Below are positions 25,705 to 38,030 of a DNA stretch of 64,000 nt, one piece after another (position 1 is the stretch's first letter; each line of letters starts with the position of its first letter). Position numbers and translations under genes: made by a program. The notes under the pieces are model-generated. The model made no database searches. It had not been told where the DNA came from and saw only the letters and a program-made list of their open reading frames with translations. Source of the DNA: Verrucomicrobiia bacterium (GTDB lineage Bacteria; Omnitrophota; Omnitrophia; Omnitrophales; Aquincolibacteriaceae); NCBI GenBank assembly GCA_035495615.1, contig DATJFP010000021.1, positions 9,024 to 73,023 of the forward strand, read 5' to 3'.

Positions 25705-28110
25705 ATGCGAAAAGAGCGAATCAACGAAATCTGGGGAGTCTTTTTCCTTTTGCTGGGGCTTTTTACGCTCGCGAGCCTGCTTTCTTTCGAGCCTAAAGAC
25801 ATCCCGTTTTATACCTCGCATCCCTTTGCCCCGATCCAGAATTACACGGGCGTCATCGGCGCGTACGCCGCGTTCGGCCTCGTCATCACGTTCGGCATCA
25901 GCGCTTATCTCATTCCCATGCTTTTCCTGCTGTGGTCGGGGTGCTTCTTCCTCCAGAAAGTCCCCGAGCGCAAAGTCTTCAAATTCCTGGGCCTGGCCAT
26001 CGCGCTTTTTTCCACGGCAACGCTCGTCGCGATTTCCGTGGCGGCCGAGGCGCGCTTTGACGAGGGCGGCGCCATCGGCTATCTCGCGGGCAGCCATCTC
26101 CTAAAATATTTCGGTCCGGTCGGCAGCTACATCGTCGCGGGTTCGTGTCTCCTGCTGTCGCTGCTTCTGGCGACAGACTTCCTGATTTATCCCGTGGTCA
26201 AAAAGATTTTCCAGAAGGGCCGCGCCACGATCCATTTCTCCGCGGAAAAAATCAGCGAGATCAAAGAAGAGATTTCCGATCTGACGCATGCGTTCAAACC
26301 GGCGTCGGCCGCGGCTAAGTCCGCTCCGGCTGCGAAAGCCGCCAAGGCTCCCGCCGCCGCGAAGGAAAAAGAGCCGCCCGCGCCGAAACTGCCGCCGATC
26401 GAAATGAAAGTGAAACGCTACCAGCCGGACGTGCCCGAGGAAGACGCTCAGGCCGAAGACAAGTCAAAGAAATCCAAAGAAAAAGACATCGAAGCGCCCG
26501 CGGCGAAAAAGCAGCAGCCGGCCGCGCCGCTTTCCGCTCCCGCGGCCGCTCTTCCTGCCGCGCCGTCCAAGCCCAAGGAAGAATCCGAAAACCGCCACGA
26601 AGGCGTGGTCGGTTCCAAGGCCGCGGCCGAATACAAGTTTCCGTCCATCGAACTCTTGAAGCGCCCGTCCGCCGGCCAGGCGAAGAACGATGACCTTCAG
26701 GGCAATTCCAGGCTCCTCGAAGAGACGCTCATGCGCTTTGGCATTGAAGTCAAAGTCGTGGAAGTCGAACAGGGCCCGGTCATCACGCGCTATGAGCTTC
26801 TCCCCGCGCCAGGCGTCAAAGTCAATTCCATCACGGCGCTGCAGGACGACCTGGCGCTCGCCTTGAAGGCGCGCAGCATCCGCCTCATTGTTCCGATCCC
26901 CGGGAAATCTGCCGTGGGCGTGGAAGTCCCGAACCTCGTTTCCAGCGTGGTCAGCCTGCGCGAGCTGATCGATTCCGCGCATTTTCGCGCGAAGAAAGCG
27001 GAGCTTCCGCTGGTGCTCGGCAAAGACACAAGCGGCAAGACCCTCATCGCGGACCTGTCCGTCATGCCGCACATCCTGATCGCGGGGACGACGGGCAGCG
27101 GCAAGACCGTTTGCGTGAACTCCATCATCACCGGCCTTCTTTATAATTCCACGCCCGAGCAGCTTAAGCTCGTCATGATCGATCCGAAAATGGTGGAGCT
27201 CGCGGTCTACAACAAGATTCCGCACATGCTGACGCCGGTGGTCACGAACGTGAAAAAAGCCGCGCACACGCTCAACTGGGTCGTGAATGAAATGGAAAAC
27301 CGTTACAAGCTGCTGGCGACCTGCGGCGTGCGCAACATCCAGACGTTTAATGCCCGCCCCATGAGCGAAGAGGCTCTGCAGGCAATCCAGGGCAAGGAAG
27401 AGTCCGAGAACGTGATTCCCGCGAAGCTGCCGTACATCGTCGTGATCATTGACGAGCTCGCCGACCTCATGCTGACCGCGGCCGACAAGGTCGAGCCCGC
27501 GATTGCGCGCCTCGCCCAGCTTGCGCGCGCTGTCGGCATTCATTTGATCCTTGCGACGCAGCGCCCTTCGGTGGACGTCATCACGGGCGTGATCAAGGCC
27601 AACTTTCCCGCGCGCATTTCGTTTAAGGTCGCATCAAAGGTCGATTCTCGCACGGTGCTGGATGCGAACGGCGCGGATAAATTGCTCGGCAGGGGCGACA
27701 TGCTTTTCATGAAGCCCGGCGACGAAAAGCCCACGCGCGGCCAGGCCCCGCTCGTCGTGGACGAAGAAATCAACGGGGTGGTGGATTTCTGGTCGAACCA
27801 GGCCAAGCCCGAATATCATCCGGAAATCGCGACCGCGCAGGAGGGCAAGTCTTCCCTCGAAGGCGGCGGAGAAAAAGACGAACTGTTCGACGAAGCCGTG
27901 GCCGTGGTCCTGGAAACAGGGCAGGCCTCGACCTCGAACCTGCAGCGCCGCCTGCGCCTCGGCTACACGCGCGCGGCCCGCATCATCGACCAGATGGAAG
28001 CCGAAGGCATTATCGGCCCCACCCAGGGCGCCAAGCCGCGCGAAATCCTCATCGCCCAGCACCAGCCCGCGGCCGTTGCCCACCCGTCCGCCGAGTCCGA
28101 ATCCGCCTAA
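25705..28110 (+). CDS. ftsK: DNA translocase FtsK
   Basis: N-terminal 4-TM domain, Pro/Ala/Lys-rich linker, Walker A GTTGSGKT, Walker B VVIIDELADLM, and a C-terminal gamma winged-helix. Confidence 0.92.
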   Translation: MRKERINEIWGVFFLLLGLFTLASLLSFEPKDIPFYTSHPFAPIQNYTGVIGAYAAFGLVITFGISAYLIPMLFLLWSGCFFLQKVPERKVFKFLGLAIALFSTATLVAISVAAEARFDEGGAIGYLAGSHLLKYFGPVGSYIVAGSCLLLSLLLATDFLIYPVVKKIFQKGRATIHFSAEKISEIKEEISDLTHAFKPASAAAKSAPAAKAAKAPAAAKEKEPPAPKLPPIEMKVKRYQPDVPEEDAQAEDKSKKSKEKDIEAPAAKKQQPAAPLSAPAAALPAAPSKPKEESENRHEGVVGSKAAAEYKFPSIELLKRPSAGQAKNDDLQGNSRLLEETLMRFGIEVKVVEVEQGPVITRYELLPAPGVKVNSITALQDDLALALKARSIRLIVPIPGKSAVGVEVPNLVSSVVSLRELIDSAHFRAKKAELPLVLGKDTSGKTLIADLSVMPHILIAGTTGSGKTVCVNSIITGLLYNSTPEQLKLVMIDPKMVELAVYNKIPHMLTPVVTNVKKAAHTLNWVVNEMENRYKLLATCGVRNIQTFNARPMSEEALQAIQGKEESENVIPAKLPYIVVIIDELADLMLTAADKVEPAIARLAQLARAVGIHLILATQRPSVDVITGVIKANFPARISFKVASKVDSRTVLDANGADKLLGRGDMLFMKPGDEKPTRGQAPLVVDEEINGVVDFWSNQAKPEYHPEIATAQEGKSSLEGGGEKDELFDEAVAVVLETGQASTSNLQRRLRLGYTRAARIIDQMEAEGIIGPTQGAKPREILIAQHQPAAVAHPSAESESA

Positions 28111-28128
28111 AAACACCCGAATGATTCA

Positions 28129-28157
28129 TTGACCCGGAATGCCCCATTTTTTATAAT
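28129..28157 (+). promoter_or_regulatory. Candidate sigma70 promoter: TTGACC, 17-nt spacer, TATAAT, upstream of tRNA-Asn
   Basis: Hexamers at 28129-28134 and 28152-28157. The leader would be ~135 nt, which is long for a tRNA. Confidence 0.35.
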
Positions 28158-28297
28158 AATGGGCCGTTTTTAAGGAATTATCCCCGGTCCTTGCCGGGTA
28201 AGCAGTTGTAACGATTTTTCCCTGTCCCGCGTTGATGACGCTGGACTGCGCTGGCGGAGCCGATAGTTTCCGTTCCGCGTGCGGGAATAAAAGACAT

Positions 28298-28370
28298 TCC
28301 CCTGTAGCTCAGTTGGTAGAGCAAGTGACTGTTAATCACTTTGTCCCTGGTTCGAGCCCAGGCGGGGGAG
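28298..28370 (+). tRNA. tRNA-Asn (anticodon GTT), CCA not encoded
   Basis: Close match to canonical bacterial tRNA-Asn (TCCxCTGTAGCTCAGTTGGTAGAGC...CTGTTAATC...GGTTCGAGCCC). Acceptor TCCCCTG/CGGGGGA, discriminator G followed by TTT. Confidence 0.85.
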
Positions 28371-28377
28371 TTTATAA

Positions 28378-28408
28378 GCCCTGCGGGAGTTTTCCCGCAG
28401 GGCTTTTT
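28378..28408 (+). terminator. Rho-independent terminator after tRNA-Asn
   Basis: GCCCTGCGGGA-gtttt-TCCCGCAGGGC followed by TTTTT. Confidence 0.7.
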
Positions 28409-28414
28409 CATGCC

Positions 28415-28443
28415 TTGACAGTATCTGCATAAGCAGATATAGT
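28415..28443 (+). promoter_or_regulatory. arsR promoter (TTGACA, 17-nt spacer, TATAGT) with an ArsR-type operator inverted repeat in the spacer
   Basis: -35 at 28415-28420 and -10 at 28438-28443. Inverted repeat TATCTGC-ATAA-GCAGATA occupies 28422-28439. Confidence 0.6.
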
Positions 28444-28449
28444 TTGGTC

Positions 28450-28800
28450 ATGAAACTGACCAATTTGCAAATCGCGCTGGCTGCCATTGCCGATCCTACG
28501 CGGCTTAGAATCATGAACCTCCTTCAAGAAGGAGAGCTATGCGTATGCGACGTGATGAGCGTTCTTAAAGAACCTCAATCCAAGGTGTCGCGCCATCTTG
28601 GCTATCTCCGGAAATCGGGATTAGTTGAAGCGCGCAAGCAGGGTCTTTGGATGTATTACCGTTTAGCTAAGCCGAGCGGGAAAACAATTCAGGGCGTTTT
28701 TGAGGCTTTGAAATTAGCCCAAAATGACTGCGAAGAGCTGAAAGAAGACCTGCGGGAATTTAATAGAAGCAAAAGCTGTCTGGTAGCCTGTTGTAAGTAA
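28450..28800 (+). CDS. arsR: ArsR/SmtB-family arsenite-responsive transcriptional repressor
   Basis: wHTH with the As(III)-binding motif ELCVCDV. C-terminal Cys cluster CLVACCK. An alternative TTG start lies at 28444. Confidence 0.85.
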   Translation: MKLTNLQIALAAIADPTRLRIMNLLQEGELCVCDVMSVLKEPQSKVSRHLGYLRKSGLVEARKQGLWMYYRLAKPSGKTIQGVFEALKLAQNDCEELKEDLREFNRSKSCLVACCK

Positions 28801-28821
28801 AATTTTTTGGTCAAAATACAT

Positions 28822-28837
28822 CTGCATAAGCAGATAT
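28822..28837 (+). promoter_or_regulatory. Second copy of the ArsR-type operator inverted repeat, upstream of the aquaporin-like/arsC genes
   Basis: ATCTGC-ATAA-GCAGAT is identical to the core of the operator at 28423-28438. It lies 21 nt downstream of the arsR stop and just upstream of RBS GGAAGGAGGGG. Confidence 0.55.
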
Positions 28838-28858
28838 GGAAGGAGGGGTTCCAATGGA

Positions 28859-29194
28859 TTGTTGCAATGGAGGGTGCTGCTAATGAACATGGTTTCAAAA
28901 GCCCTGGCGGAGATGGGAGGCGCGTTTGCTCTCATCTTCGTTGGCGCCGGAAGTATTATGCTTTCCGAAAAGCATATTGTCCCGGCTTTTTGTATTCCTC
29001 TCGCGTGGGGTCTCATGGTTTCTCTGATGATTATCGCGGTAGGCCATATATCGGGAGCGCATTTTAATCCGGCGGTTACTCTTGCTTTCGCGATAACGAA
29101 ACGCATTCCGTTTAGCGAAATCTGGTTTTATTGGACGAGTCAGATGATAGGCGGGATTATTGCCGCCAGCCTTTTAGGGGCTTTGAACAAATGA
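28859..29194 (+). CDS. Half-length aquaporin/aquaglyceroporin (MIP family) protein: TM1-TM3 plus the first NPA box only. Possible truncated arsenite channel
   Basis: Aligns to the AqpZ/GlpF N-terminal half (GAFALIFVGAGS...VGHISGAHFNPAVTLAFAI). The ORF stops after TM3. The stop overlaps the arsC ATG (AAATGA). TTG start is 10 nt after a strong RBS, with an alternative ATG at 28882. Confidence 0.5.
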   Translation: MLQWRVLLMNMVSKALAEMGGAFALIFVGAGSIMLSEKHIVPAFCIPLAWGLMVSLMIIAVGHISGAHFNPAVTLAFAITKRIPFSEIWFYWTSQMIGGIIAASLLGALNK

Positions 29195-29610
29195 AAACAA
29201 AAGTGCTTATCCTATGTACTGGAAATTCCTGCCGTTCTCAAATGGCTGAAGGGATATTGAGGCATTATGGAGCAGATAAATTCGAGGTTTTCAGTGCTGG
29301 AACCAAGCCTTCCACAGTCAACAAAATAGCCATTGAGGTCATGCGCGAACTTGGTATTGATATATCCGGCCAACGTTCTAAGAGCGTCAGCGAGTTGTTG
29401 GGGCAGCATTTTCACTATGTCATAACTGTTTGTGATAATGCCAAGGAGTCCTGTCCTATTTTCCCGGGGAATAGCACCCAACTCCATTGGGCATTTCCTG
29501 ACCCGCCGCATGAGAAGACGATTACCGAAGAAGTCCGAAAGGAGTTCCGCAAGGTCCGCGATCTCATTCATACCCGCTTTAAGAAAGTGGCCGAAACGGG
29601 AAACTTTTAG
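29191..29610 (+). CDS. arsC: Arsenate reductase, LMW-PTP / thioredoxin-coupled type
   Basis: ILCTGNSCRSQMAEG P-loop. Conserved Cys pair in VCDNAKESCP. Overall similarity to pI258/B. subtilis ArsC. Confidence 0.88.
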   Translation: MKTKVLILCTGNSCRSQMAEGILRHYGADKFEVFSAGTKPSTVNKIAIEVMRELGIDISGQRSKSVSELLGQHFHYVITVCDNAKESCPIFPGNSTQLHWAFPDPPHEKTITEEVRKEFRKVRDLIHTRFKKVAETGNF

Positions 29611-29722
29611 GCGACTAAGCTGATTTGGGCGCTTTCCAAGAGGATACGGATCGAAGAAAGTTCAATTTTTAAGGCTTCGGAAAGGTTGCGAAACGCGTCC
29701 AACAGGGGGAGTTTTATAAGAA

Positions 29723-29760
29723 AAGGCCGCTTCGAGTCCAATCGCTGCGGCCTTTTTTTT
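29723..29760 (+). terminator. Terminator hairpin with a T8 tail downstream of arsC
   Basis: GGCCGC...GCGGCC stem followed by TTTTTTTT at 29753-29760. Confidence 0.5.
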
Positions 29761-30154
29761 AGTCTTTGACGCTTTGGGGGGCTGATTCTTTTCGAAGAAA
29801 TTCTCTGAGGTCATAAGCAGTAGTATGTTCGGGCCCGATCTCCCATTCTTTTTTTCTGCTATGGTGCAGAAGCGTCACAATTCCGGTCTTTGCCTTATGG
29901 GCCATTTTTTCAAAACACGCCCTCCGGTCCGGCTCTCGAAGCTCCTTCTCGTATTCCTCTAGAAATCGATCATGAGTCCAATGTTTCCAAATTCTCATTT
30001 CCTTCAACTCATAAGAGGGCGCGAGCTCATGCATCCAAGTATAAGGCGCGAGCGTATAAGCATCCATTCCCTCCGGCCACAAAGTTTCCACGAGATATCT
30101 TTCGCCATCAGCCGGTTCATAAGTTTCATAAGCGCTTTTCAATTTAAGGGGCAT
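29759..30154 (-). CDS. DUF488 (YeaO-like) family protein
   Basis: N-terminal pattern KSAYETYEPADGERYLVETLWPEG...LAP resembles the DUF488 consensus (RVYEP...DG.RVLVDRLWPRG). Confidence 0.55.
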   Translation of the reverse strand: MPLKLKSAYETYEPADGERYLVETLWPEGMDAYTLAPYTWMHELAPSYELKEMRIWKHWTHDRFLEEYEKELREPDRRACFEKMAHKAKTGIVTLLHHSRKKEWEIGPEHTTAYDLREFLRKESAPQSVKD

Positions 30155-30261
30155 TTTTTCCTCTCTTTCTGTTCAGAAGCGGGGAATCCCGCGAAATACT
30201 GTTCATGGACAACCCCCCTATTGAGGAGTATGCTGAATTTATAGGGGGGGAGGTGATTGCT

Positions 30262-30555
30262 ATGGCAGCAGTCCAACAAGGCGGCTCTAAGATGCGGACA
30301 ATGGAACTCGTTATGCCGGCCCACCTCGGATTTCACCTCCGCATTATCGCGCGGTTCGTGCAGCTTGCCCTCAGATTTCGTTCTTCTATTAAAATTCGAA
30401 AAGGAAAGCTCGTTGCTGACGGTAAAAGCATCCTTGGTCTTCTCACGCTGGGAGCTGCGTGGAAGTCAAAGATGGAAATCGAAGTTTGCGGTGATGATGC
30501 TGATCAGGTCGTCGAGCGTATTAACGAGTTTTTTTTGATGCAAGAAAATAGATAG
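30262..30555 (+). CDS. HPr-family phosphocarrier-like protein
   Basis: PAHLGFHLRIIARFVQLA...IKIRKGKLVADGKSILGLLTLGAAWKSKMEIEVCGDDADQVVERINEFF matches the HPr fold signature, including the His phosphorylation-site context. Strong RBS GGGGGGGAGGTG. Confidence 0.6.
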   Translation: MAAVQQGGSKMRTMELVMPAHLGFHLRIIARFVQLALRFRSSIKIRKGKLVADGKSILGLLTLGAAWKSKMEIEVCGDDADQVVERINEFFLMQENR

Positions 30556-30594
30556 ACTGAAAGCGGCGTTTGCCCGACGGCGCATTTGTTTTCT

Positions 30595-31275
30595 CTATTC
30601 TGGGGTTTTGTGGATGCTGCTTTCAATGATTCCCGCGGCAATGGCATAGCGGGTCAGGCCCGCGGTGTCATGGATGTTTAACTTTTCCATGAGATGCTGC
30701 CGGTGTTTTTCAACCGTTTTGATGCTGATATCAAGTTCCGCGGCGATCTGCTTGTTGGCGTTCCCTTCGGCAATTAATTGAAGCACCTCGACCTCGCGCG
30801 AGCTTAGGCTGATCTTTTTCCCTCGAGGAAGAGCTTCCCGGCGGCGCAGTTTCTGATAAAGTTCGGGCAATCGTTTGGCGATGGAGGGGCTGAAAAATCG
30901 ATTTCCCTTTTGGACTTCCCGGATGGCTTTCGACAAAACCTCGTAAGAAGTCTGCTTGATGATATATCCTGAGGCGCCGAGTAACAGCACCCGCTTGACG
31001 TATTCTTCGTCACTATACGCGGAGAGAATGATGATTCGTGCCGCTGGCATAGACTTCAGGATTTGCCGCGTGGCTTCAAATCCGTTCAAAAGCGGCATCG
31101 CGATATCCATCACAATTACCGCAGGACGAAGCGCCTTGGCGAGCTGCACGGCCTGGCGGCCGGTTTGCGCCTCACCGACCACTTCGATATCGCCTTCAGC
31201 CTCGAGCAGCATCCGAAGCCCTTGCCGGAGAATTTTATGGTCCTCAGCCAGGAGGACGGTGATTCGATTTGCCAT
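30595..31275 (-). CDS. NarL/LuxR-family response regulator (REC + HTH)
   Basis: VLLAEDH...VIVMDIAMP receiver domain with phospho-accepting Asp. C-terminal LuxR HTH (LSSREVEVLQLIAEGNANKQIAAELDISIKTVEKHR). Start overlaps the upstream kinase gene. Confidence 0.85.
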   Translation of the reverse strand: MANRITVLLAEDHKILRQGLRMLLEAEGDIEVVGEAQTGRQAVQLAKALRPAVIVMDIAMPLLNGFEATRQILKSMPAARIIILSAYSDEEYVKRVLLLGASGYIIKQTSYEVLSKAIREVQKGNRFFSPSIAKRLPELYQKLRRREALPRGKKISLSSREVEVLQLIAEGNANKQIAAELDISIKTVEKHRQHLMEKLNIHDTAGLTRYAIAAGIIESSIHKTPE

Positions 31276-32071
31276 TGCTTCGTCTTGCTCCGTTGATGAA
31301 AGGAATCTCCACCCGGACCAAAGTGCCTTTGCCGGCCGTGGACTCGATCGTAAAGCTGCCATTAACCATTTCTACCCGTTCCCGCATCCCGATGACGCCT
31401 AATCTTTTGTGCCTTTTGGCGAAAAGCACGCGGTCCACTCGAAAAGATTTGCCATTGTCTTTTATTTCCATGCGAATGGAATTCCGCAGTTTCAGGATGC
31501 TCAAGCTCGCTTTGCTTGCTTTCGCATGCTGCGCGACATTCGTGAGCGCCGATTGGGCCACTCGATAAAGCATCGTACGCTTGGAGCCGCTTAATCTTTC
31601 CACACCGCGAAAGACCGTAAAGCGGACGGGAATGCGAGTTCTTTTTGTGAAGTCTTTTATGTAGGAAGTCAAAGCCGGAATAAGCCCCAGGTCGTCCAAG
31701 ATCGTTGGGCGCAATTCCCGGGCGAACCGGTGCACAATGTTCACCGAATTTTCTACAAGGCGCTGCGTATGGACTATTTTTTTCTTGAGGCCCTTCGTGT
31801 TGGTTGCAGCTTCTTTTTTTAACCCGCCCAGATGGACATTGATTCCGGCCAGGGTCTGAGCGATTTCATCGTGAAGCTCGCGGCTGATCTGCCTCCGTTC
31901 TTCCTCCTGCGCGAGCAGGATCTGATGAGACAGGCGCCGCAAACGCTTTTGCATCTCGCGCGACTCGCCCAGCACTTGGTTATAGTGCTGCTTATTTTTT
32001 TTAAGCGCGGCCTCCGCGATCTTGCGCCGGTGGATCTCTTGTTTGAGTTTATCGTTCCTAGGATCGTTCAT
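31244..32071 (-). CDS. Soluble sensor histidine kinase, HisKA_3/NarX-DesK type, no TM segments
   Basis: N-terminal coiled coil. H-box ELHDEIAQTL. HATPase_c C-terminus. Confidence 0.8.
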   Translation of the reverse strand: MNDPRNDKLKQEIHRRKIAEAALKKNKQHYNQVLGESREMQKRLRRLSHQILLAQEEERRQISRELHDEIAQTLAGINVHLGGLKKEAATNTKGLKKKIVHTQRLVENSVNIVHRFARELRPTILDDLGLIPALTSYIKDFTKRTRIPVRFTVFRGVERLSGSKRTMLYRVAQSALTNVAQHAKASKASLSILKLRNSIRMEIKDNGKSFRVDRVLFAKRHKRLGVIGMRERVEMVNGSFTIESTAGKGTLVRVEIPFINGARRSNGKSNHRPPG

Positions 32072-32133
32072 CGGATTCCCTTCACTATTATCGAATAGTT
32101 ACTTTGATCCGTCCATGGGTAATGAAATGCTGC

Positions 32134-33321
32134 TTAGGCGGCCTGAAGCTGCAAGTACACCGATTTCCACTGGGTGAGCATTTGATGAAATCGGCGGCGG
32201 GCCTCTAGGCTTCTAACAGCGGCTTCCTTCGTTGCATTGGAATGCCGTGCAATGCGCTGACAGAGAATCTGCTGATAATCCCTGGCGGCATGCTCCCAAT
32301 CGCCCAGGGTTTGCTTGAGTTTTTCATATTGAGCCTGAAGCATTTCTCGGAAAGTCAAGGCGCCCGGATTTTCGAGTCTTTCGAGAAGCCGGTCTTCAAG
32401 ACTTTGTTTTTCGGCGGCCAGTTGGGCGGCAATAATACGGAACTTGGACATCTTTCTTAAATCCCACGCAAGCCCCAGCCCGGAGAGTAGAGCAATTATC
32501 CATTTGGTTGGGTCCCATTGGTACCAGCGCACGCCATTCCGGTAATCTCCCGGGAAATGATGGTGATAATTATGATAGCCCTCTCCATTTGTGATCAAGG
32601 CCGCCAGCCAGTGGTCCTTCGCCGAAGAATAAATGTCGTAGGTGGCTTTCCCAAACTTATGGCAAACCGAATTGATGCAGAAGGTGGCGTGGTAGACCAA
32701 GGTAAGCCGGGTGCAGACGCTTAAGAGGAAGGCTCCAAGCAGATGCCCTGTAAGCGCGCCAACGACGAGGGGAGTGAGAATCCCCGCCGTGATTGACCAT
32801 GCCGTGTAATAACGATGCTGATGCGCGAGAAGCCGGCTTTTTCGCAGGTCTCTTGCATTCTCATAATGGAGGGGATGCTGCCAAAAAATGAGCCATCCAA
32901 TGTGCGCGTAAAAGAACCCTTTTTTAATGCTGTAGGGGTCAAGCTCGGAGTCGACTAAGCGGTGATGATCGCGGTGCTGCGAGGCCCAGCGGAGGGCGGA
33001 TTGCTCGAAAGCGGCGGCCCCGAAAAAGAGCACGAGAAAACGGACAAGGGCATGGGCTTTAAAAGTGCAGTGGGCAAAGAGCCGGTGGTAACCCAGGGTG
33101 ATGCTGGTGCTCGTAACCGCCATGTAAAACAAAAAGAGCAAAAGCTCCGAGACTGAAATGCCAAAACGGAGAAGATAGAGGCAAGTTCCAAGCGTCCCTA
33201 AAAGGGTCGTGATGAAGAAAAAAATGACATTGGTCCAGATCACCTTTTTTACCGGGACCTGCTGTTGCGCCGCCGTAACCTCTTTGTTCCCAAATCGTTG
33301 TCCCATTGCTTTTTGTCTCAT
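32134..33321 (-). CDS. Acyl-CoA/acyl-lipid fatty acid desaturase with ~100-aa C-terminal coiled-coil extension
   Basis: His boxes HRLFAH, HRDHHRLVD, HNYHHHFPGDYRNG. 4 TM segments. Confidence 0.85.
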   Translation of the reverse strand: MRQKAMGQRFGNKEVTAAQQQVPVKKVIWTNVIFFFITTLLGTLGTCLYLLRFGISVSELLLFLFYMAVTSTSITLGYHRLFAHCTFKAHALVRFLVLFFGAAAFEQSALRWASQHRDHHRLVDSELDPYSIKKGFFYAHIGWLIFWQHPLHYENARDLRKSRLLAHQHRYYTAWSITAGILTPLVVGALTGHLLGAFLLSVCTRLTLVYHATFCINSVCHKFGKATYDIYSSAKDHWLAALITNGEGYHNYHHHFPGDYRNGVRWYQWDPTKWIIALLSGLGLAWDLRKMSKFRIIAAQLAAEKQSLEDRLLERLENPGALTFREMLQAQYEKLKQTLGDWEHAARDYQQILCQRIARHSNATKEAAVRSLEARRRFHQMLTQWKSVYLQLQAA

Positions 33322-33358
33322 GGCTTCAATGATAATTCAATTCAAGGCCGCGCAATAT

Positions 33359-33399
33359 GGGGTATTCAGCCCATGGACCGGAGGTGGGGTCAATACCCC
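33359..33399. promoter_or_regulatory. 8-bp inverted repeat GGGGTATT...AATACCCC (25-nt spacer) in the desaturase upstream region
   Basis: Perfect arms at 33359-33366 and 33392-33399, 40-80 nt upstream of the minus-strand desaturase start. Candidate operator or 5'UTR stem. Confidence 0.3.
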
Positions 33400-33461
33400 A
33401 TAGTTATTGTATCCGATAAGGTTTAACCTGACAGCTCGATCGGCGAAGTTATAGAGAAGGT

Positions 33462-34568
33462 ATGGGGGGTGGTATGAAATCGACGTCCATGATTCTGTCT
33501 GATTTTTTAACCCAAAATAAAAATGAGATTATTCAGCTATGTAGAGACAAGGTGCTTGCCGCGGGAGAGTCCAAGCCAACTTCAACCCTGTTAGAACGAG
33601 GGCTGCCTTTCTTCTATGATGAGCTCATCGAGGTATTAAAACGCGCCGGTTCCCTGGCCTTTATCGACCTCATTAAACAGGATGGCGAAGCTGCCGTGCA
33701 TGGAAAAGAGTCGTTGCGGCTTGGCTACACAATCTCCCAAGTTGTTCATGCTTACGGCGCTGTTTGCCAATCCATCACAGAATTTGTCCAAGCTAAATCG
33801 TATCAAATCACTCCTCTCGAGTTTCAAACTCTTAACCTTGCCCTTGATTGCGCCATCGCCGAGGCTGTAACCGAATTTGAGAAAACACAAAGCGAAAATG
33901 TCGCCCGAAGCGAATCTGAACGCCTAGGCTCCCTCATTCATGAACTGGGGAATTCGCTTGCGGCAGCATCGATCTCTTCTGATTTGATTCAATCGGGGCG
34001 AGTGGCAAGCGCGGGCAAAACCAGCGATGTGTTGAGGGGGGCGCTCAAGCGCATGCGCCACATCCTGGATGTTTCGCTCACTGAAATTCGTTTGCGGACG
34101 AAAGCCCCATTGGAAGCAGAACAAATCCGTCTTATTGATATTATAAGCGAGATAGAAGCCGTTACGATGATCATGTATGAGACTAAAAAAATCCATTTGG
34201 AATTTCATATCGATCCTTCCATTGAATTAACCGCTGACCGCCATCTGGTTTTTTCCGCGCTCTCGAATTTGGTGAACAATGCCATGAAATTCACAAAGAG
34301 AAATGGGCGTGTCTTCGTACGCGGCAAAGAATCGGCGGGGCGCATCTTGATTGAAGTAGAAGACGAATGTGGGGGCTGGCAGGAAGAAGATAATGTGGAG
34401 GAGTTATTCGATCCTTTCGTCCAAAAAGGAGAGGATAAATCCGGTTTAGGTTTGGGGCTCTCCCTCAGTCGTAAAGCCATCGAATTAAATCGCGGCAAAC
34501 TGACGGCGCATAATATCCCGGGAAAAGGATGCGTCTTTACAATCGACCTCCCGAAGATCGAGAAATAG
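33462..34568 (+). CDS. Cytoplasmic sensor histidine kinase (HisKA + HATPase_c)
   Basis: H-box SLIHELGNSLAAA. N/G-box region NLVNNAMKFT...GLGLGLS. Confidence 0.75.
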   Translation: MGGGMKSTSMILSDFLTQNKNEIIQLCRDKVLAAGESKPTSTLLERGLPFFYDELIEVLKRAGSLAFIDLIKQDGEAAVHGKESLRLGYTISQVVHAYGAVCQSITEFVQAKSYQITPLEFQTLNLALDCAIAEAVTEFEKTQSENVARSESERLGSLIHELGNSLAAASISSDLIQSGRVASAGKTSDVLRGALKRMRHILDVSLTEIRLRTKAPLEAEQIRLIDIISEIEAVTMIMYETKKIHLEFHIDPSIELTADRHLVFSALSNLVNNAMKFTKRNGRVFVRGKESAGRILIEVEDECGGWQEEDNVEELFDPFVQKGEDKSGLGLGLSLSRKAIELNRGKLTAHNIPGKGCVFTIDLPKIEK

Positions 34569-34829
34569 TTTCCATCAAGACTTTGAAAGTCCATGGCGCT
34601 AGATAGTGCCCAGTTGCGAAAGTCGTCCTGGACGGGGAGGCATTAAAAAAGCCAGTGCCCATGAGGGTGCTGGCTTTTTTATTTGAACCCGGCCCTTCAG
34701 CGAAGAAACCCTTTTAGGTTGGAAGAAGTGCCTGTTTCGCTTTCTATAGGGCTTATAGGTTCCGCTAGCTCTCTCATCGAATGAGGCGTAGACTCCTATT
34801 GTGCTTCGATTTATAAAGAAAGGGCATCT

Positions 34830-35918
34830 GTGAATTTTAAGGAAAGATTCAAACCATTTATTGAACATCGAAGGCAGCTCAAGACCATCTACGTGGCGAC
34901 TTGTGACGAAACCGGCCAGCCCAATTGCGCGCCAAGATTGCTTATCGATATCACGGAGCCCAACCACATCTTTTACGTTGATTTCAAGTCATCACAAAGC
35001 TATGCGAACATTTGCTCGACCAAGAAAGTCTCTCTGGCTTTTATGGACGAAAGAAATCTCGTAAGCTTTAAAATCAACGGGCGTTGCGAAACCATACAGT
35101 CCAGCAAAGAGCTCAAGACCGTTAAGGACAAATGGGCCAAGATCGTCAATGGTTATCATGCGGAGCGGATCATCGAACGGGTTACGGGGGTTGTTTCGGG
35201 CAGGGTTGGAGAAATCGTGCTCAGTGAGGATTACGTATTCATCAAGTTTTCTGCAGAGAAAATGAAACACGCCGTGATCCGGCATCCCAGTGCTTATCCG
35301 ATAGGTAAAATAGCGGCTTTACAGCTGCGGATCGACGATCTTCAAAAAGTCGTCGAGAAACAAAAAGAGGACGGGCGGGAGATGGAAGTCTCCAGAGATT
35401 CCTATAAAGCAAGCTCAGATATGTTTGAAGTCGCCGCAATGCAAGACAACCTTACGGGACTTTACAATCAGCGTGGTTTTATCGTCCTTGTGGAGCAGCA
35501 ATTAAAGATTGCCAAGCGGCAGAAAAAGGACAGTTTTTTTATATTTTCAGATGTGGATCATTTGAAACGGATTAATGATACCTTCGGCCATGCAAAGGGG
35601 GATCAAACGCTCGTGGAAATTGCGCGGATCTTGAAGAAGAGTTTTCGCGAATCGGATATTATCGCCAGAATCGGCGGAGACGAATTTGCGGTGGCGATGG
35701 TGGATTGCGGGAAGGAAAATCTGGATTTAGCAAAAGGCCGGTTAAAGAAAAATATAGAAGCGTACAACCGAAATTCCCGGGAGGCTTACCCCATCGAGCT
35801 TAGTGTCGGCGTCGCCTGCTGCAACTCAGACGACACAATCGATCTGCGTAAGCTGCTTCATCAAAGTGATCAAATGATGTATGAAGAGAAAAGAAAAAAT
35901 AATCCCGAATCTCTTTAA
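34830..35918 (+). CDS. PNPOx-like (FMN-binding split barrel) domain fused to GGDEF diguanylate cyclase
   Basis: N-terminal pyridoxamine-5'-phosphate-oxidase-like fold (TIYVATCDETGQPNCAPR). C-terminal GGDEF with intact RIGGDEFAV and RxxD-like context. Confidence 0.75.
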   Translation: MNFKERFKPFIEHRRQLKTIYVATCDETGQPNCAPRLLIDITEPNHIFYVDFKSSQSYANICSTKKVSLAFMDERNLVSFKINGRCETIQSSKELKTVKDKWAKIVNGYHAERIIERVTGVVSGRVGEIVLSEDYVFIKFSAEKMKHAVIRHPSAYPIGKIAALQLRIDDLQKVVEKQKEDGREMEVSRDSYKASSDMFEVAAMQDNLTGLYNQRGFIVLVEQQLKIAKRQKKDSFFIFSDVDHLKRINDTFGHAKGDQTLVEIARILKKSFRESDIIARIGGDEFAVAMVDCGKENLDLAKGRLKKNIEAYNRNSREAYPIELSVGVACCNSDDTIDLRKLLHQSDQMMYEEKRKNNPESL

Positions 35919-35934
35919 TTTGCACAGGCCCGCG

Positions 35935-36004
35935 CTTCAGAACTCAAGAAAGCCCACGATCTCATCCATGCACGATTTAAGAAGGTGGGCGAGACAGGGA
36001 GTTT
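35935..36004 (+). pseudogene. Remnant 3' end of an arsC-like gene (last ~22 codons)
   Basis: Translates to ...ELKKAHDLIHARFKKVGETGSF*, versus the arsC C-terminus EFRKVRDLIHTRFKKVAETGNF*. Confidence 0.55.
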
Positions 36005-36120
36005 TTAGGCGGCCAAGCTAATTCGGGCACTTTCCAAGAGGATACGGACCGACGAAAACTCAATTTTCAGGGCGTGAGTAGGGTTCCGAAACGCGTCCAA
36101 CAGGGGGAGTTTTGCAAAAG
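35935..36120 (+). repeat. Copy B of a ~180-bp duplicated module (arsC 3' end + conserved spacer). Copy A lies at 29548-29726
   Basis: About 80% nucleotide identity by hand alignment. Includes the blocks CTTTCCAAGAGGATACGGA and CGAAACGCGTCCAACAGGGGGAGTTTT. Confidence 0.65.
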
Positions 36121-36157
36121 GCGTTGTGTGGGTATAATCTCACAACGCCTTTTTATT
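36116..36157 (+). terminator. Bidirectional-looking terminator hairpin
   Basis: AAAAG-GCGTTGTG-(13-nt loop containing TATAAT)-CACAACGCC-TTTTTATTT. Confidence 0.55.
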
Positions 36158-36182
36158 TAATCCGAAGCTTGGAGGTGGGGAC

Positions 36183-37094
36183 ATGAATAAAACAAATTCT
36201 TTTTTATGCTCATTCTTTGCTTGTTTTTTATTAATCCACACCGGCTCTTTTGCCGCCGACATCCCTCAAGCCTCTCAGCAGGAGACCTTTAAGCGAATCG
36301 AAGAGCTGACGGGTGCCAAAGGCGCTTACGACGAAAAGGAGCAAGTCTTCAAAGTCAGCTTTCCTCGTAAAGATTTAGAAGTTAATGCGGCCGGGGCCAA
36401 AATAACTCCACCAATGGGACTTACCGCCTGGGCTGCTTTCAAGCTGATGGGCGATCATACCATGATGATGGGCGACATGGTGATGACCGAAGACCAGGTC
36501 AACCCGGTCATGAGCGTTGCGCTTGAAAATGGTTTGGAGGTTACGGCGCTCCACAATCATTTCTTTTGGGATTCTCCGAAAATAATGTTCATGCATATTG
36601 GCGGAATGCGGGATACGGAAGCTTTAGCCCAAGCGGTCGGAAAGGTTTTTGAAAAAATCAGAGAGACAAGCGGCGGCAAAGGCGAAAAGCCTTATCTTGA
36701 AATTGATCCCTCAAAGACATCTCTCGACCCCAAGAACATCGAAGAAATCATGGGTAAAACTGGAAAAATGAACGACGGCGTTTATAAGATTACCATTGGC
36801 CGGACCACTCAAATGGGCGGTCACGAAATGGGTAACGCGATGGGCGTGAATACCTGGGCCGCTTTTATCGGGAGCGATGAAAAGGCGTTGGTTGACGGCG
36901 ATTTTGCCATGCTCGAATCCGAAGTGCAGCCCGTATTGAAGGCTTTGCGCGGCGCGGGAATCAATATCGTCGCGATTCACAACCATATGACGATGGAAAA
37001 TCCGAGAATCATTTTTCTGCATTATTGGGGGATTGGCGCAACAGTCGATCTCGCCAAAGCCTTAAAGGCCGCATTGGACTTACAGAAACAATGA
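36183..37094 (+). CDS. Secreted protein with internal duplication carrying (A/I)HNH(F/M) motifs, DUF1259-like
   Basis: Signal peptide MNKTNSFLCSFFACFLLIHTGSFAA. Two homologous halves (LTAWAAFKLMGD...ALHNHFF and VNTWAAFIGSDE...AIHNHMT). Confidence 0.6.
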   Translation: MNKTNSFLCSFFACFLLIHTGSFAADIPQASQQETFKRIEELTGAKGAYDEKEQVFKVSFPRKDLEVNAAGAKITPPMGLTAWAAFKLMGDHTMMMGDMVMTEDQVNPVMSVALENGLEVTALHNHFFWDSPKIMFMHIGGMRDTEALAQAVGKVFEKIRETSGGKGEKPYLEIDPSKTSLDPKNIEEIMGKTGKMNDGVYKITIGRTTQMGGHEMGNAMGVNTWAAFIGSDEKALVDGDFAMLESEVQPVLKALRGAGINIVAIHNHMTMENPRIIFLHYWGIGATVDLAKALKAALDLQKQ

Positions 37095-37106
37095 CCGGGA
37101 GGGCCC

Positions 37107-37385
37107 TTGTTCGGAAAACGCTTAACAGAAAAATTTAAAAAAGAGCTGAGAATTTACCAGCTTATTTTGAAGGATTCCCGGACGCCGGGAATTTCGAAAT
37201 GGTTCTTAGGAATGGCGGTTGCCTACGCCCTTTCTCCCATCGACCTTATTCCGGACTTTATACCCCTTCTTGGAGTGTTAGACGATCTGATTATTGTTCC
37301 CTTGCTCATTTGGCTTGGCATTCGCTCCATTCCCAAAAAGATTTTAGAGGATTGCCGAAACCAAGCAAACAACCAGGAGAATTGA
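37107..37385 (+). CDS. DUF1232 (YkvA-like) small membrane protein
   Basis: Motif SPIDLIPDFIPLLGVLDDLII. TTG start is uncertain, with an alternative internal ATG. Confidence 0.5.
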   Translation: MFGKRLTEKFKKELRIYQLILKDSRTPGISKWFLGMAVAYALSPIDLIPDFIPLLGVLDDLIIVPLLIWLGIRSIPKKILEDCRNQANNQEN

Positions 37386-37388
37386 CGC

Positions 37389-37997
37389 ATGAGAAAACTG
37401 ATCGTTCTTTCCTTTATATCGCTTGATGGCGTCATCCAAGCCCCCGGAGGCCCGGAAGAAGATACTTCGGACGGTTTCAAATACGGCGGCTGGACTTTTC
37501 CTTATTTCGATGGCGTGTCGGGAGAGATTATGGCTGAACAGATGTCCCGGCCGTTTAACCTGCTTCTCGGCAGAAAAACTTACGATATTTTTGCCGGGTA
37601 CTGGCCGCATCATGGAGACAAGTGGCCGGGGGTTAACGACGCGCCCAAGTATGTTGCCTCAAGGAACAGCTCGCTCAAACTTGAATGGAAGAATTCGGTC
37701 CTCCTGAAAGGCGACATCGCAGAAGAAGTGCAGAAGCTCAGAAAACAAAACGGTCCCGAGCTGCATGTGTACGGCAGCGGCGATTTCATTCAAACTCTTT
37801 TGAAACACGATCTCATCGATGAGCTTTGGCTCAAGATCTTTCCCGTCACTTTGGGGAAGGGTAAACGCCTCTTTGCCGAAGGCGCCATCCCCGCAGAGTT
37901 TACTTTGACGGACTGCAAAGTTTCTCCGAGCGGCGTGATCTTTGCCAATTACAAACGGGCGGGAGAGGTCAAAACGGGATCGTTCGCGGCCGGCTGA
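37389..37997 (+). CDS. Dihydrofolate reductase-family protein (RibD C-terminal-like)
   Basis: MRKLIVLSFISLDGVIQAPGGPEED...GGW...LLGRKTYDIFAGYWP is typical of the bacterial DHFR-like YwjB/RibD_C family. Confidence 0.75.
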   Translation: MRKLIVLSFISLDGVIQAPGGPEEDTSDGFKYGGWTFPYFDGVSGEIMAEQMSRPFNLLLGRKTYDIFAGYWPHHGDKWPGVNDAPKYVASRNSSLKLEWKNSVLLKGDIAEEVQKLRKQNGPELHVYGSGDFIQTLLKHDLIDELWLKIFPVTLGKGKRLFAEGAIPAEFTLTDCKVSPSGVIFANYKRAGEVKTGSFAAG

Positions 37998-38030
37998 ACA
38001 GGATTCAGGCGGCGCCGGGCTTAGCGGGAA

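What the first reader, a model, noticed from the sequence alone, without database searches (positions are those of the whole stretch)
29548..36120. Duplicated arsC-3'-end + conserved spacer + terminator module flanking a 6.2-kb gene block
The last ~20 codons of arsC plus ~110 nt of downstream non-coding sequence (29548-29726) recur at ~80% identity at 35935-36120, right after the GGDEF gene. There they encode ...DLIHARFKKVGETGSF*. Highly conserved blocks include CTTTCCAAGAGGATACGGA and CGAAACGCGTCCAACAGGGGGAGTTTT. The non-coding part is conserved as well as the coding part. This implies either recent duplication or recombination, or a functional element such as an sRNA, UTR element or recombination site. 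The two copies bracket DUF488, HPr-like, the two-component system, the desaturase, the second kinase and the GGDEF gene, as if that block was inserted into, or captured with, an arsC locus.
Basis: seen in the sequence. Interest (0 to 1): 0.55.

Follow-up and report, generated by a model that had tools for sequence, protein, structure and literature searches.

The report
Scars of a tRNA-targeting integrase element
The repeated "arsC end + conserved spacer" is the leftover tail of a serine-integrase gene with its attachment site, a scar of mobile elements that insert at the end of a tRNA-Asn gene; this integrase family is largely undescribed.

Summary
The repeat is real: 29551-29715 and 35949-36113 match over 165 nt, ungapped, at 81% identity. 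It is not an RNA element and not a recent duplication.

- **What the spacer is.** On the minus strand it reads KLPLLDAFRN...LVA*. This is the last ~35 codons of a large serine recombinase (LSR) gene. It is cut off exactly at CTCCCCC, the complement of the tRNA-Asn 3' end GGGGGAG.
- **Evidence from relatives.** In metagenome relatives the same LSR reading frame continues in one of two ways. It either runs into this tail (attP form) or into the reverse complement of a tRNA-Asn gene (integrated form). So attP lies inside the LSR's own 3' coding region, and integration swaps the protein's tail.
- **Local context.** The window has a tRNA-Asn at 28297-28371, followed by a ~10-kb low-GC island. The island holds three such scars, all in the tRNA's orientation and each followed by a terminator: A, B and a degenerate third copy (34598-34639). 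There is no recombinase gene.
- **The arsC parts.** They differ mostly at synonymous sites (omega 0.07), so B comes from a second arsC gene that was once functional.

Scars at tRNA islands are ordinary. An LSR clade that targets tRNA genes is not.

The parts
28297..28371 (+). tRNA-Asn(GTT) gene. Its 3' end ...CAGGCGGGGGAG (GGGGGAG = 28364-28370) is the chromosomal attachment target (attB left half) of the recombinase family.
   Evidence: ARAGORN; Rfam tRNA 66.3 bits; sequence. tRNA-Asn is the only tRNA found beside true members of the motif family, always upstream and in the same orientation.
28379..28409 (+). Intrinsic terminator 8 nt after the tRNA (CCCTGCGGGA-loop-TCCCGCAGGG-CTTTTTC). The spacer TTTATAAG resembles the spacer TTTTATAAG after copy A.
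   Evidence: Sequence; comparison of flanks.
28372..38000 (.). Low-GC island (0.46-0.53 against about 0.60 in the flanks). It holds all three scars and no recombinase gene.
   Evidence: Composition profile. tblastn with 13 full-length LSRs and three LSR fragments finds nothing but the tails.
29191..29610 (+). Intact arsC (LMW-PTP type arsenate reductase), last gene of arsR / half-size MIP / arsC. Its final ~20 codons form the left part of copy A.
   Evidence: Pfam LMWPc 3.7e-22. P0001 is 100% identical. The same operon occurs in L081 and L167.
29551..29715 (+). Repeat copy A as found by the repeat finder.
29607..29711 (-). Scar A: the last 34 codons plus stop of a large-serine-recombinase gene (LPLLDAFRNLSEALKIELSSIRILLESAQISLVA*), with no start codon. 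Its stop overlaps the arsC stop. It begins exactly at CTCCCCC.
   Evidence: Translation. Homologous tails end real LSR reading frames. omega is 0.31 in this frame, the lowest of six.
29684..29711 (+). attP left half-site GGTTGCGAAACGCGTCCAACAGGGGGAG. It is a gapped look-alike of the tRNA-Asn T-arm and acceptor end GGTTCGAGCCCAGGCGGGGGAG, and includes most of the 27-nt block identical in A and B.
   Evidence: Pattern found in 74 metagenome stretches.
29721..29760 (+). Terminator A (GGCCGC...GCGGCC + T8), bidirectional in form. It is not homologous to terminator B.
   Evidence: Sequence; fold.
34598..34639 (-). Scar C: a degenerate, shorter LSR tail of another subtype (LPVQDDFRNWALSS...), directly after the histidine-kinase gene.
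   Evidence: tblastn; sequence and translation. Window 34602-34685, which covers most of scar C and its terminator, is 85% identical to L081 1228-1311.
34644..34681 (+). Terminator C. This was the source of the sub-threshold Rfam 'Thr_leader' hits.
35938..36008 (+). Remnant of a second arsC gene (last ~23 codons, ...SELKKAHDLIHARFKKVGETGSF*). It is cut off about 20 nt after the stop of the GGDEF gene.
   Evidence: omega 0.07 and pS 0.72 against the intact arsC tail.
35949..36113 (+). Repeat copy B.
36005..36109 (-). Scar B: LSR tail LPLLDAFRNPTHALKIEFSSVRILLESARISLAA*, the same subtype as A and as L123, L116, L133 and L159.
36116..36154 (+). Terminator B (GGCGTTGTGTG...CACAACGCC + T5), followed by the DUF1259 gene at 36183.

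Best explanation
Each copy is the distal junction (attR-type scar) of an integrative element that uses a large serine recombinase (LSR) to insert at the 3' end of a tRNA-Asn gene.

**How the element works.** In the free element the attachment site attP lies inside the recombinase's own gene, about 35 codons before its stop. The crossover falls at TGG|CTCCCCC, which is the complement of the tRNA end GGGGGAG(CCA). The last cargo gene, here arsC, converges on the recombinase gene and their stop codons overlap.

**What integration does.** It splits the recombinase gene. The main part ends up next to the tRNA and now reads into the tRNA's complement. The last ~35 codons stay behind the cargo at the far end of the element, joined to whatever followed the tRNA: a short A/T spacer and a terminator.

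**What this window holds.** The tRNA-Asn hot spot has kept three such pieces, A, C and B. A and B come from two related ars-carrying elements. All recombinase genes and most of the second ars operon have been lost.

**Shown versus inferred.**
- Shown: the homology, the three junction types, and the linkage to tRNA-Asn.
- Inferred: that the LSR itself catalyses the reaction, the exact crossover base, and the order of events that built the island.
For: 1. **The block reads as a protein tail.** On the minus strand it reads L-P-L-[LVM]-D-x-F-R-N. The variable bases fall at Leu wobble/first positions and in a Gxx codon. In 60 of 72 unique hits the frame stays open 20-45 codons and then stops. Upstream, a stop often lies 1-4 codons away and there is no start codon. 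Codon-position entropy in an independent subfamily is 0.76/0.60/1.25, though the members were picked with a peptide pattern, which can inflate the third-position figure. A cluster built on nucleotide identity alone also shows the most synonymous changes in this frame.
2. **The tail ends real recombinase frames.**
   - L129 carries Recombinase + Zn_ribbon_recom, followed by ...SPFSLLAKGASRHKW-LPLVDEFRNWLL...*.
   - A profile of this C-terminal region finds 2528 cluster representatives.
   - These include 485-512 aa proteins. The five checked have Resolvase + Recombinase + Zn_ribbon_recom.
3. **Two tail classes follow the conserved W.** 23 are attP-type (LPxxDxFRN...) and 33 read as the complement of a tRNA end (LPRLGSN / LPxxDSNxxP).
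4. **DNA-level junctions.**
   - L166, an intact 506-aa LSR, runs into the complement of a tRNA with anticodon GTT (Rfam tRNA 36.6 bits).
   - L165 runs into ...GCTGGTTCGAGTCCAGCCGGGGGAGCCA.
   - L123 shows both ends of one element: an LSR remnant fused to tRNA-Asn (9041-9116) and, 4.8 kb away, a tail of the window's subtype preceded by a terminator.
   - The flank right of GGGGGAG in L123 attL is homologous to that in the attP-type loci L129 and L160.
5. **tRNA-Asn linkage.** It is the only tRNA found beside true members of the motif family (L086, L123, L146, L147, L158, L167, the window, and the cut 3' part in L081). It is always upstream and co-oriented.
6. **The window.** GC drops right after the tRNA. 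The three scars are co-oriented with it.
7. **Divergence between A and B.** omega is 0.07 in the arsC tail and 0.31 in the LSR tail.
Against: - No recombinase gene or remnant is left in the window, so the link to the LSR rests entirely on relatives.
- The tRNA's own 3' flank looks native (spacer plus terminator) rather than like the complement of an LSR gene. The element next to the tRNA has therefore been lost, or the scars were imported with other DNA.
- Each scar has a different terminator, which simple serial integration at one tRNA does not predict.
- All attP-type tails seen so far sit on gene fragments. Every full-length LSR retrieved is in the tRNA-fused state.
- No relative with an empty site was found.
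- Identity between attP and the tRNA is only 7-10 nt plus gapped similarity.
- Dyad symmetry of attP is clear only in L114.
- No experiment shows recombination.
Confidence: 0.8

Rival explanations
1. The copies are not recombination junctions. They are the 3' ends of two recombinase genes that decayed in place by ordinary deletions. The tail and the adjacent hairpin were kept only because they terminate arsC transcription.
For: - The T-run after A and B starts 41-42 nt past GGGGGAG. That is the distance at which intact LSR genes carry, on the antisense strand, a hairpin plus T-run encoded by ...RKPF...G...W (L114, L129). A dozen unrelated hits share this distance.
- Longer remnants of graded length exist: L129 about 330 aa, L114 about 110 aa.
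Against: - In about 60 independent loci, protein homology stops at the same codon, and stop codons lie 1-4 codons upstream. Random deletions would not do this.
- A and B lack the right-arm motif (TGGACGA / TGACGG) that the attP-type loci L114, L121, L129 and L160 carry 6 nt past GGGGGAG.
- The spacer after A (TTTTATAAG) matches the native flank of the window's tRNA-Asn (TTTATAAG).
Confidence: 0.1
2. A segment (arsC 3' end + spacer) was duplicated in place, and the copies then drifted apart neutrally. The 6.2-kb block lies between them by chance or as an insertion with a long target duplication.
For: Two direct copies bracket a block of unrelated genes. The arsC remnant in B has no function now.
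Against: - The arsC tails differ at 72% of synonymous sites but 16% of non-synonymous sites (omega 0.07). The LSR tail gives omega 0.31. This is divergence under selection in two genes, not drift of a dead copy.
- B's arsC tail is no closer to A than the tails of arsC genes from other contigs are (81% for L081, 77% for L082).
- A third scar of another subtype lies inside the block.
- The same module occurs next to unrelated genes in dozens of contigs.
Confidence: 0.04
3. The spacer is a functional plus-strand RNA: a 3'-UTR element, a 3'-UTR-derived small RNA or a terminator-associated motif.
For: It lies between a stop codon and an intrinsic terminator in all three window copies, so it is probably transcribed. 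33 of 72 hits have a strong hairpin plus T-run downstream. A 27-nt block is invariant between A and B.
Against: - No Rfam family matches, even at E up to 10.
- Without the terminator the fold is no better than shuffles (z -0.60 and +0.10).
- The RNAalifold consensus is -5.4 kcal/mol, with a positive covariation term and 0 of 14 pairs compensatory.
- Variation follows the codons of the opposite strand.
- The sequence is the end of recombinase reading frames.
Confidence: 0.04
4. The minus strand encodes a small independent protein (the 44-aa ORF at 29607-29741).
For: An ORF with a TTG start exists in copy A. Conservation is codon-like.
Against: The start would lie inside the terminator hairpin. 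Copy B and most homologues have an in-frame stop 1-10 codons upstream of LPLL and no start codon. There is no room for a promoter between hairpin and ORF. No match in Pfam or NCBIfam.
Confidence: 0.02

Closest known systems
Genomic islands at tRNA/tmRNA genes, with a displaced fragment marking the far end and tandem arrays (Islander/TIGER framework; PMC4383910)
   Same: A tRNA gene sits at one end and a co-oriented partial copy of its 3' end at the other. Composition is deviant, several scars share one hot spot, and the cargo is adaptive (ars operon, signalling genes).
   Different: - Those islands use tyrosine integrases with 20-50+ nt identical cores. [quoted passage not shown]
- Here the shared core is only GGGGGAG(CCA) plus gapped similarity.
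- The associated enzyme is a large serine recombinase.
- The tRNA is not split; the crossover is at its very end.
Myxophage Mx8 IntP/IntX (PMC6070905; Tojo et al. 1996, cited in PMC4383910)
   Same: attP lies within the integrase coding sequence, so integration gives the gene a new 3' end and the protein a new C-terminus. That its target overlaps a tRNA gene is from my own knowledge, not from the text I read.
   Different: Mx8 Int is a tyrosine recombinase. In Mx8 the change of specificity was shown by experiment; here the tail swap is inferred from sequence only.
SSV1-type 'suicidal' integrases of archaea (PMC8371274)
   Same: The recombination site sits inside the integrase gene, and the gene is partitioned on integration into a tRNA gene. 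Orphan gene pieces remain as footprints.
   Different: They are tyrosine recombinases, and the review calls them exclusive to archaea. There the split inactivates the gene. Here only the last ~35 of ~500 codons are exchanged, and full-length frames persist in the integrated state.
Characterised large serine integrases (phiC31, Bxb1, A118/LI, TP901-1)
   Same: The domain order is the same: Resolvase, Recombinase, zinc ribbon, then a coiled-coil region. attP has an outer motif set about 6 nt further from the centre than in attB. This echoes the attP/attB spacing difference described for LI integrase, which I recall from memory and did not test.
   Different: The known enzymes have attP outside the int reading frame and target protein-coding or intergenic sites. 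[quoted passage not shown]
Tycheposons and cryptic elements of Prochlorococcus (bioRxiv 10.1101/2020.12.28.424599)
   Same: A family of cargo-carrying elements at tRNA genes. 27 of 937 carry a large serine recombinase instead of a tyrosine recombinase.
   Different: Different hosts. No relation to this LSR clade was tested. The passages I read do not mention attP inside the recombinase gene.

Membership tests
tRNA-gene integrative island (att scar / displaced fragment) | Intact tRNA gene at one end, co-oriented with the scar | tested here: met
   tRNA-Asn at 28297-28371 (+), with scars at 29684-29711, 34617-34639 and 36082-36109 on the same strand. The same arrangement is seen in L086, L123, L146, L147, L158, L081 and L167.
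tRNA-gene integrative island (att scar / displaced fragment) | Scar repeats the tRNA 3' end (a long identical core, as for tyrosine integrases) | tested here: not met
   No repeat of the last 22 or 30 nt of the tRNA at up to 5 mismatches. Only GGGGGAG plus gapped similarity is shared: GGTTCGAGCCCAGGCGGGGGAG vs GGTTGCGAAACGCGTCCAACAGGGGGAG.
tRNA-gene integrative island (att scar / displaced fragment) | Integrase gene inside the island, next to the tRNA | tested here: not met
   There is none in the window. It is met in relatives: L166 and L165 (intact LSR), L123 (remnant).
tRNA-gene integrative island (att scar / displaced fragment) | Deviant composition and absence from related genomes | tested here: inconclusive
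   GC is 0.46-0.53 against about 0.60. No syntenic relative with an empty site was found.
Large serine recombinase system | Enzyme with Resolvase + Recombinase + zinc-ribbon domains | tested here: met
   P0145, P0153, P0200, P0204 and P0273 carry all three domains. L129 carries Recombinase + Zn_ribbon_recom. This was tested on relatives only; the window holds just the last 34 codons.
Large serine recombinase system | attP and attB are short imperfect dyads around a central dinucleotide | tested here: inconclusive
   L114 attP has a perfect TCGTCCA...TGGACGA dyad centred in GGGGGAG. Others reach only 4-6 of 7. 5 of 78 sites reach 6 of 7 or better, against about 2 expected by chance.
Large serine recombinase system | The enzyme recombines these sites | not testable with these tools
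   Needs an in vivo or in vitro recombination assay.
attP-inside-integrase-gene systems (Mx8 IntP, SSV-type) | Reading frame of the integrase runs across attP | tested here: met
   P0121-P0123, P0131, P0139 and others, and L129/L114: LSR homology runs without a break into the LPxxDxFRN tail.
attP-inside-integrase-gene systems (Mx8 IntP, SSV-type) | Integration changes or splits the integrase | tested here: met
   Two tail classes diverge at the same codon. Orphan tails occur at the far end (L123; window scars A, B, C).
attP-inside-integrase-gene systems (Mx8 IntP, SSV-type) | Tyrosine recombinase | tested here: not met
   The domain set is that of serine recombinases.
Structured RNA (sRNA / cis-regulatory 3'-UTR element) | Conserved secondary structure with covariation, or a match to a curated family | tested here: not met
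REP/MITE-like intergenic repeat | Many copies per genome; terminal inverted repeats or a palindromic unit | tested here: not met
   There are three copies in 64 kb, all in one island. A and B have no dyad. Flanks on both sides are unrelated among loci.

The most novel reading that the evidence does not exclude
A large, essentially undescribed clade of large serine recombinases (2528 cluster representatives at 50% identity) is specialised for the 3' end of tRNA genes, tRNA-Asn in every case checked here. Its attP is built into the last ~35 codons of its own gene. Integration then exchanges the enzyme's C-terminal tail for a tRNA-encoded one. It also places an antisense-encoded hairpin plus T-run behind the tRNA as a replacement terminator. 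The tail swap could act as a built-in switch of activity or directionality, as in Mx8 IntP/IntX but in the serine family. Two sources I read say that family does not target tRNA genes.
Probability: 0.45. Interest if true: 0.7.

Novelty: new variant of a known kind. Interest (0 to 1): 0.5.

Why it matters
For this window, the result removes a candidate regulatory RNA. It explains an odd repeat as the footprint of mobile elements, and shows that the ars and signalling genes between 28.4 and 38.0 kb are acquired cargo at a tRNA-Asn hot spot.

More widely, the scar led to a recombinase family that combines three features:
- It is a serine integrase tied to a tRNA gene, something two sources I read say is not known (PMC4383910, PMC9262239).
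- Its attP lies inside its own reading frame.
- Both partner sites can be read off the sequence almost to the base.

If the enzymes are active, they would be integrases with a natural landing site in a gene present in every bacterium. The tail exchange would be a testable mechanism for controlling direction without a separate factor.

The family's tails are also a trap for annotation. They are common, have no start codon, and look like conserved non-coding DNA.

Tried and rejected
- **Rfam.** Gathering thresholds and E up to 10 gave only two tRNAs. The 'Thr_leader' and 'BSR0709' sub-threshold hits are plain terminators.
- **arsC relatives.** I looked for the spacer downstream of arsC in 80 GTDB loci and in the three closest arsC contigs. 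It was absent, so it is not an arsC 3'-UTR element.
- **tmRNA-like tag.** I considered this because the peptide has no start codon and several tails end in LAA or LVA. I dropped it once the tails proved to be ends of recombinase frames.
- **Other ideas dropped:**
  - Integron attC: core sites do not fit.
  - DGR template/variable repeat: differences are not adenine-specific and there is no reverse transcriptase.
  - Shufflon: the copies are direct, not inverted.
  - IS200/IS605 ends: the hairpins vary.
- **Pfam and NCBIfam on the tail peptides.** Nothing.
- **Word-indexed protein search with the L129 C-terminus.** Only nine close fragments. The exhaustive profile search was needed.
- **Empty-site comparison.** I used homologues of the flanking acetyl-CoA synthetase. 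Synteny is not conserved and no tRNA lies nearby.
- **LSR remnant next to the window's tRNA or in L167.** None found.
- **Codon-periodicity test.** My first test was biased, because the subfamily was chosen by a peptide pattern. I repeated it on clusters built from nucleotide identity. The minus frame was again best, but the plus frame that shares its wobble positions was close behind.
- **dN/dS on the LSR tail.** My first calculation used the wrong frame. The six-frame table in the same call gives the valid figure.

Full report
**1.
The repeat finder reports one long direct repeat in the window: 29551-29715 against 35949-36113. It is 165 nt, ungapped, 81% identical, with a spacing of 6398 nt. 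All other repeats are 40 nt or shorter (alignment).

Copy A covers the last ~20 codons of an intact arsC (Pfam LMWPc) plus about 105 nt up to a terminator. Copy B starts about 20 nt after the stop of the GGDEF gene. It reads ...DLIHARFKKVGETGSF* in the arsC frame and runs to another terminator. The two terminators are unrelated in sequence, and similarity ends 4 nt after GGGGGAG. The spacer is better conserved than the arsC part: 19 differences in 108 nt against 17 in 60 nt.

**2. It is not a known or detectable RNA.**
- Rfam gives nothing for the region, even at E up to 10.
- Without the terminator, the spacers fold no better than shuffles (z -0.60 and +0.10).
- Seven copies of the same subtype from four sources give an RNAalifold consensus of -5.4 kcal/mol. 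The covariation term is positive and none of 14 pairs is compensatory.
- The spacer is absent downstream of arsC in 80 genome loci and in the three closest arsC contigs.

**3. The right-hand block is widespread and reads as protein on the other strand.**
A chance hit in L081, in an unrelated intergenic region, suggested the pattern CGAAANNCGTCCANNAGGGGGAG. It occurs in 74 metagenome stretches and one viral contig.

On the opposite strand it reads L-P-L-[LVM]-D-x-F-R-N. The free positions are a Leu wobble, a Leu first base and a Gxx codon. In 60 of 72 unique hits this frame stays open for 20-45 codons and then stops. Upstream, an in-frame stop often lies 1-4 codons away and there is no start codon.

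The codon evidence has limits:
- Variation is concentrated at third positions (0.76/0.60/1.25 bits). That subfamily was chosen with a peptide pattern, which can inflate the figure.
- On clusters built from nucleotide identity alone, the same frame again has the most synonymous changes. The plus frame that shares its wobble positions is close behind.
- Between A and B this frame has omega 0.31, the lowest of six.

The result is a conserved C-terminal peptide with no beginning.

**4. The peptide is the tail of a large serine recombinase.**
Two loci have homologous sequence upstream of the motif. In L129 the frame continues upstream through ...SPFSLLAKGASRHKW. It is interrupted by one stop, then continues into a region with Pfam Recombinase and Zn_ribbon_recom domains.

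A profile of this ~110-aa C-terminal region (alignment A4) finds 2528 cluster representatives in the 1.84-billion-protein library. Some are 485-512 aa long. The five checked all have Resolvase + Recombinase + Zn_ribbon_recom.

**5. Two kinds of tail diverge at the same codon.**
After the conserved W, 23 representatives continue with LPxxDxFRN... plus about 25 residues. This is the window's kind. Another 33 continue with LPRLGSN... or LPxxDSNxxP. That is what the reverse complement of a tRNA's CCA end, acceptor stem and T-arm translates to.

The DNA confirms this:
- The intact 506-aa gene in L166 runs into the complement of ...GACTGTTAATC...GGTTCGAGTCCGGCCCCGGGAGCCA. This is a tRNA with anticodon GTT (Rfam tRNA 36.6 bits, cut by the contig end).
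- The 512-aa gene in L165 runs into ...GCTGGTTCGAGTCCAGCCGGGGGAGCCA.

**6. One contig shows both ends of an element.**
In L123 a recombinase remnant (...SPFHIFAEGASRQEW) is fused at TGGCTCCCCC to the complement of a complete tRNA-Asn (9041-9116). About 4.8 kb away, on the same strand, TGGCTCCCCC is followed by LLDAFRNPTEGFKIELSS...LLAA*. That is the subtype of window copies A and B, and it is preceded by a terminator hairpin.

The sequence to the right of GGGGGAG at the tRNA junction of L123 is homologous to that in L129 and L160, where the recombinase frame is continuous.

This gives the full set of site types:

| Site | Where seen |
|---|---|
| attP | L129, L114, L160 |
| attL | L123, L166 |
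| attR | L123, window A and B |
| attB | any free tRNA-Asn |

All switch within GGGGGAG(CCA). So attP lies inside the recombinase's own 3' coding region, and integration exchanges the last ~35 codons.

**7. Link to tRNA-Asn.**
I scanned about 75 loci with ARAGORN. tRNA-Asn(GTT) was the only tRNA found beside true members of the family, in L086, L123, L146, L147 and L158. In each case it lies upstream of the motif and on the same strand. The one other tRNA was a tRNA-Met in L087, where the pattern match lies in an unrelated high-GC reading frame.

Three further cases fit:
- L167, which carries an ars operon 74% identical to the window's, has a tRNA-Asn just upstream.
- L081 begins with the last 63 nt of a tRNA-Asn.
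- In the window, tRNA-Asn lies at 28297-28371 and ends ...CAGGCGGGGGAG.

**8. The window as a whole.**
GC falls from about 0.60 to 0.46-0.53 between the tRNA and about 38000.

Besides A and B, tblastn found a third, degenerate tail of another subtype at 34598-34639, directly after the histidine-kinase gene. Most of it, together with its terminator, is 85% identical to L081 1228-1311, and the stem differences are compensatory.

All three scars share the tRNA's orientation. Each is followed by a short A/T spacer and a hairpin with a T-run. The spacer after A (TTTTATAAG) matches the tRNA's own flank (TTTATAAG). No recombinase gene or remnant is present.

**9. Origin of the A/B pair.**
The arsC tails differ at 72% of synonymous sites and 16% of non-synonymous sites (omega 0.07). 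B is therefore the end of a second arsC that evolved as a working gene before it was truncated. Its tail is as close to arsC genes from other contigs as it is to A.

The likeliest reading is that two related elements each carried an ars operon whose arsC converged on the recombinase gene, with overlapping stops. The same 4-nt overlap with unrelated convergent genes is seen in L105, L109, L113, L122, L123, L129 and L148.

How they came to lie 6.4 kb apart is not settled. Two routes are possible:
- Serial integration followed by loss of the recombinase genes and of most of the second ars operon.
- Import of a composite island by recombination anchored in the ars operon, with an illegitimate joint at about 35940.

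The different terminators and the native-looking flank of the tRNA favour the second route, or a mixed history.

**10. Comparison with what is known.**
Islands at tRNA genes with displaced fragments and tandem arrays are classic. [quoted passage not shown] attP inside the integrase gene is known in two settings, both with tyrosine recombinases:
- Phage Mx8, where integration gives int a new 3' end and alters its specificity (PMC6070905).
- Archaeal SSV-type 'suicidal' integrases, described as exclusive to archaea (PMC8371274).

A preprint on Prochlorococcus elements at tRNA sites notes that 27 of 937 carry a large serine recombinase. The combination is therefore not wholly unseen. I found no description of this clade or of its attP-in-ORF design. 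My literature search was limited to open-access text.

**11. Verdict.**
The finding is real and explained. It is a pair (in fact a trio) of attachment-site scars, not a regulatory element. On its own that is ordinary. The recombinase family it exposes is a new variant of a known kind and deserves a direct test.

Noticed in passing
window 28859-29194; L081 4946-5257; L167 2159-2470: The MIP (aquaporin-family) gene of the ars operon is only 103-111 aa: three helices and one NPA motif, matching Pfam profile positions 7-108 of 222. I first took it for a truncated pseudogene. It is conserved in length in three contigs, ends at or overlapping the arsC start in the window and L081, and is under purifying selection (pN/pS 0.17-0.28 with pS 0.64-0.82). 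A half-size channel protein in an arsenic operon is unusual.
   Followed up: partly
window 34598-34681: A third, degenerate recombinase-tail scar with its own terminator sits between the histidine-kinase and GGDEF genes, inside the '6.2-kb block'. Window 34602-34685 is 85% identical to L081 1228-1311, and the stem changes are compensatory.
   Followed up: yes
window 28100-38000: A ~10-kb low-GC stretch (0.46-0.53 against about 0.60) starts at the tRNA-Asn. It ends between the RibD_C gene (stop at 37997) and the convergent acetyl-CoA synthetase gene (stop at 38031). No att-like repeat was seen at the right end.
   Followed up: partly
window 29725-29755: The stem-loop of terminator A contains TTCGAGTCC, a T-loop-like 9-mer. 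The spacing that follows is that of a tRNA 3' end: TTCGAGT / CCAAT / CGCTGCG / G / CC. It may be a fragment of a different tRNA left by another integration event.
   Followed up: no
L114 8380-8424; L123 8985-9045; L129 6293-6345: The codons ...R-K-P-F-x-x-x-A-K-G... near the end of the recombinase gene form, on the antisense strand, a hairpin followed by a T-rich run. The hairpin starts 14-18 nt after the tRNA end. After integration this would serve as a replacement terminator for the tRNA.
   Followed up: partly
window 38031-40178 and 29191-29610: The arsC protein is labelled 'Verrucomicrobiae bacterium' in NCBI (P0001). Yet the best matches of the high-GC core gene for acetyl-CoA synthetase are Omnitrophota (79%), as are the best arsC matches. 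The taxonomic label of the source bin may be wrong.
   Followed up: no
L127 1082-1725; L159 7519-10423: Other contigs carry arrays of the same scars. L127 has two tails 620 nt apart. L159 has two tails of the window's subtype plus a recombinase remnant (P0126) fused to a 24-nt fragment of a tRNA 3' end.
   Followed up: partly
L167 2884-2970: In L167 the arsC stop is followed by about 25 nt, then GGAGTTTTA and a terminator. This could be a scar of the window's type with an internal deletion of ~80 nt, but the match is too short to judge.
   Followed up: no
window 34830-35918: The GGDEF protein has an N-terminal PNPOx-like (pyridoxamine-phosphate-oxidase fold) domain. This is an uncommon sensor domain for a diguanylate cyclase.
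   Followed up: no
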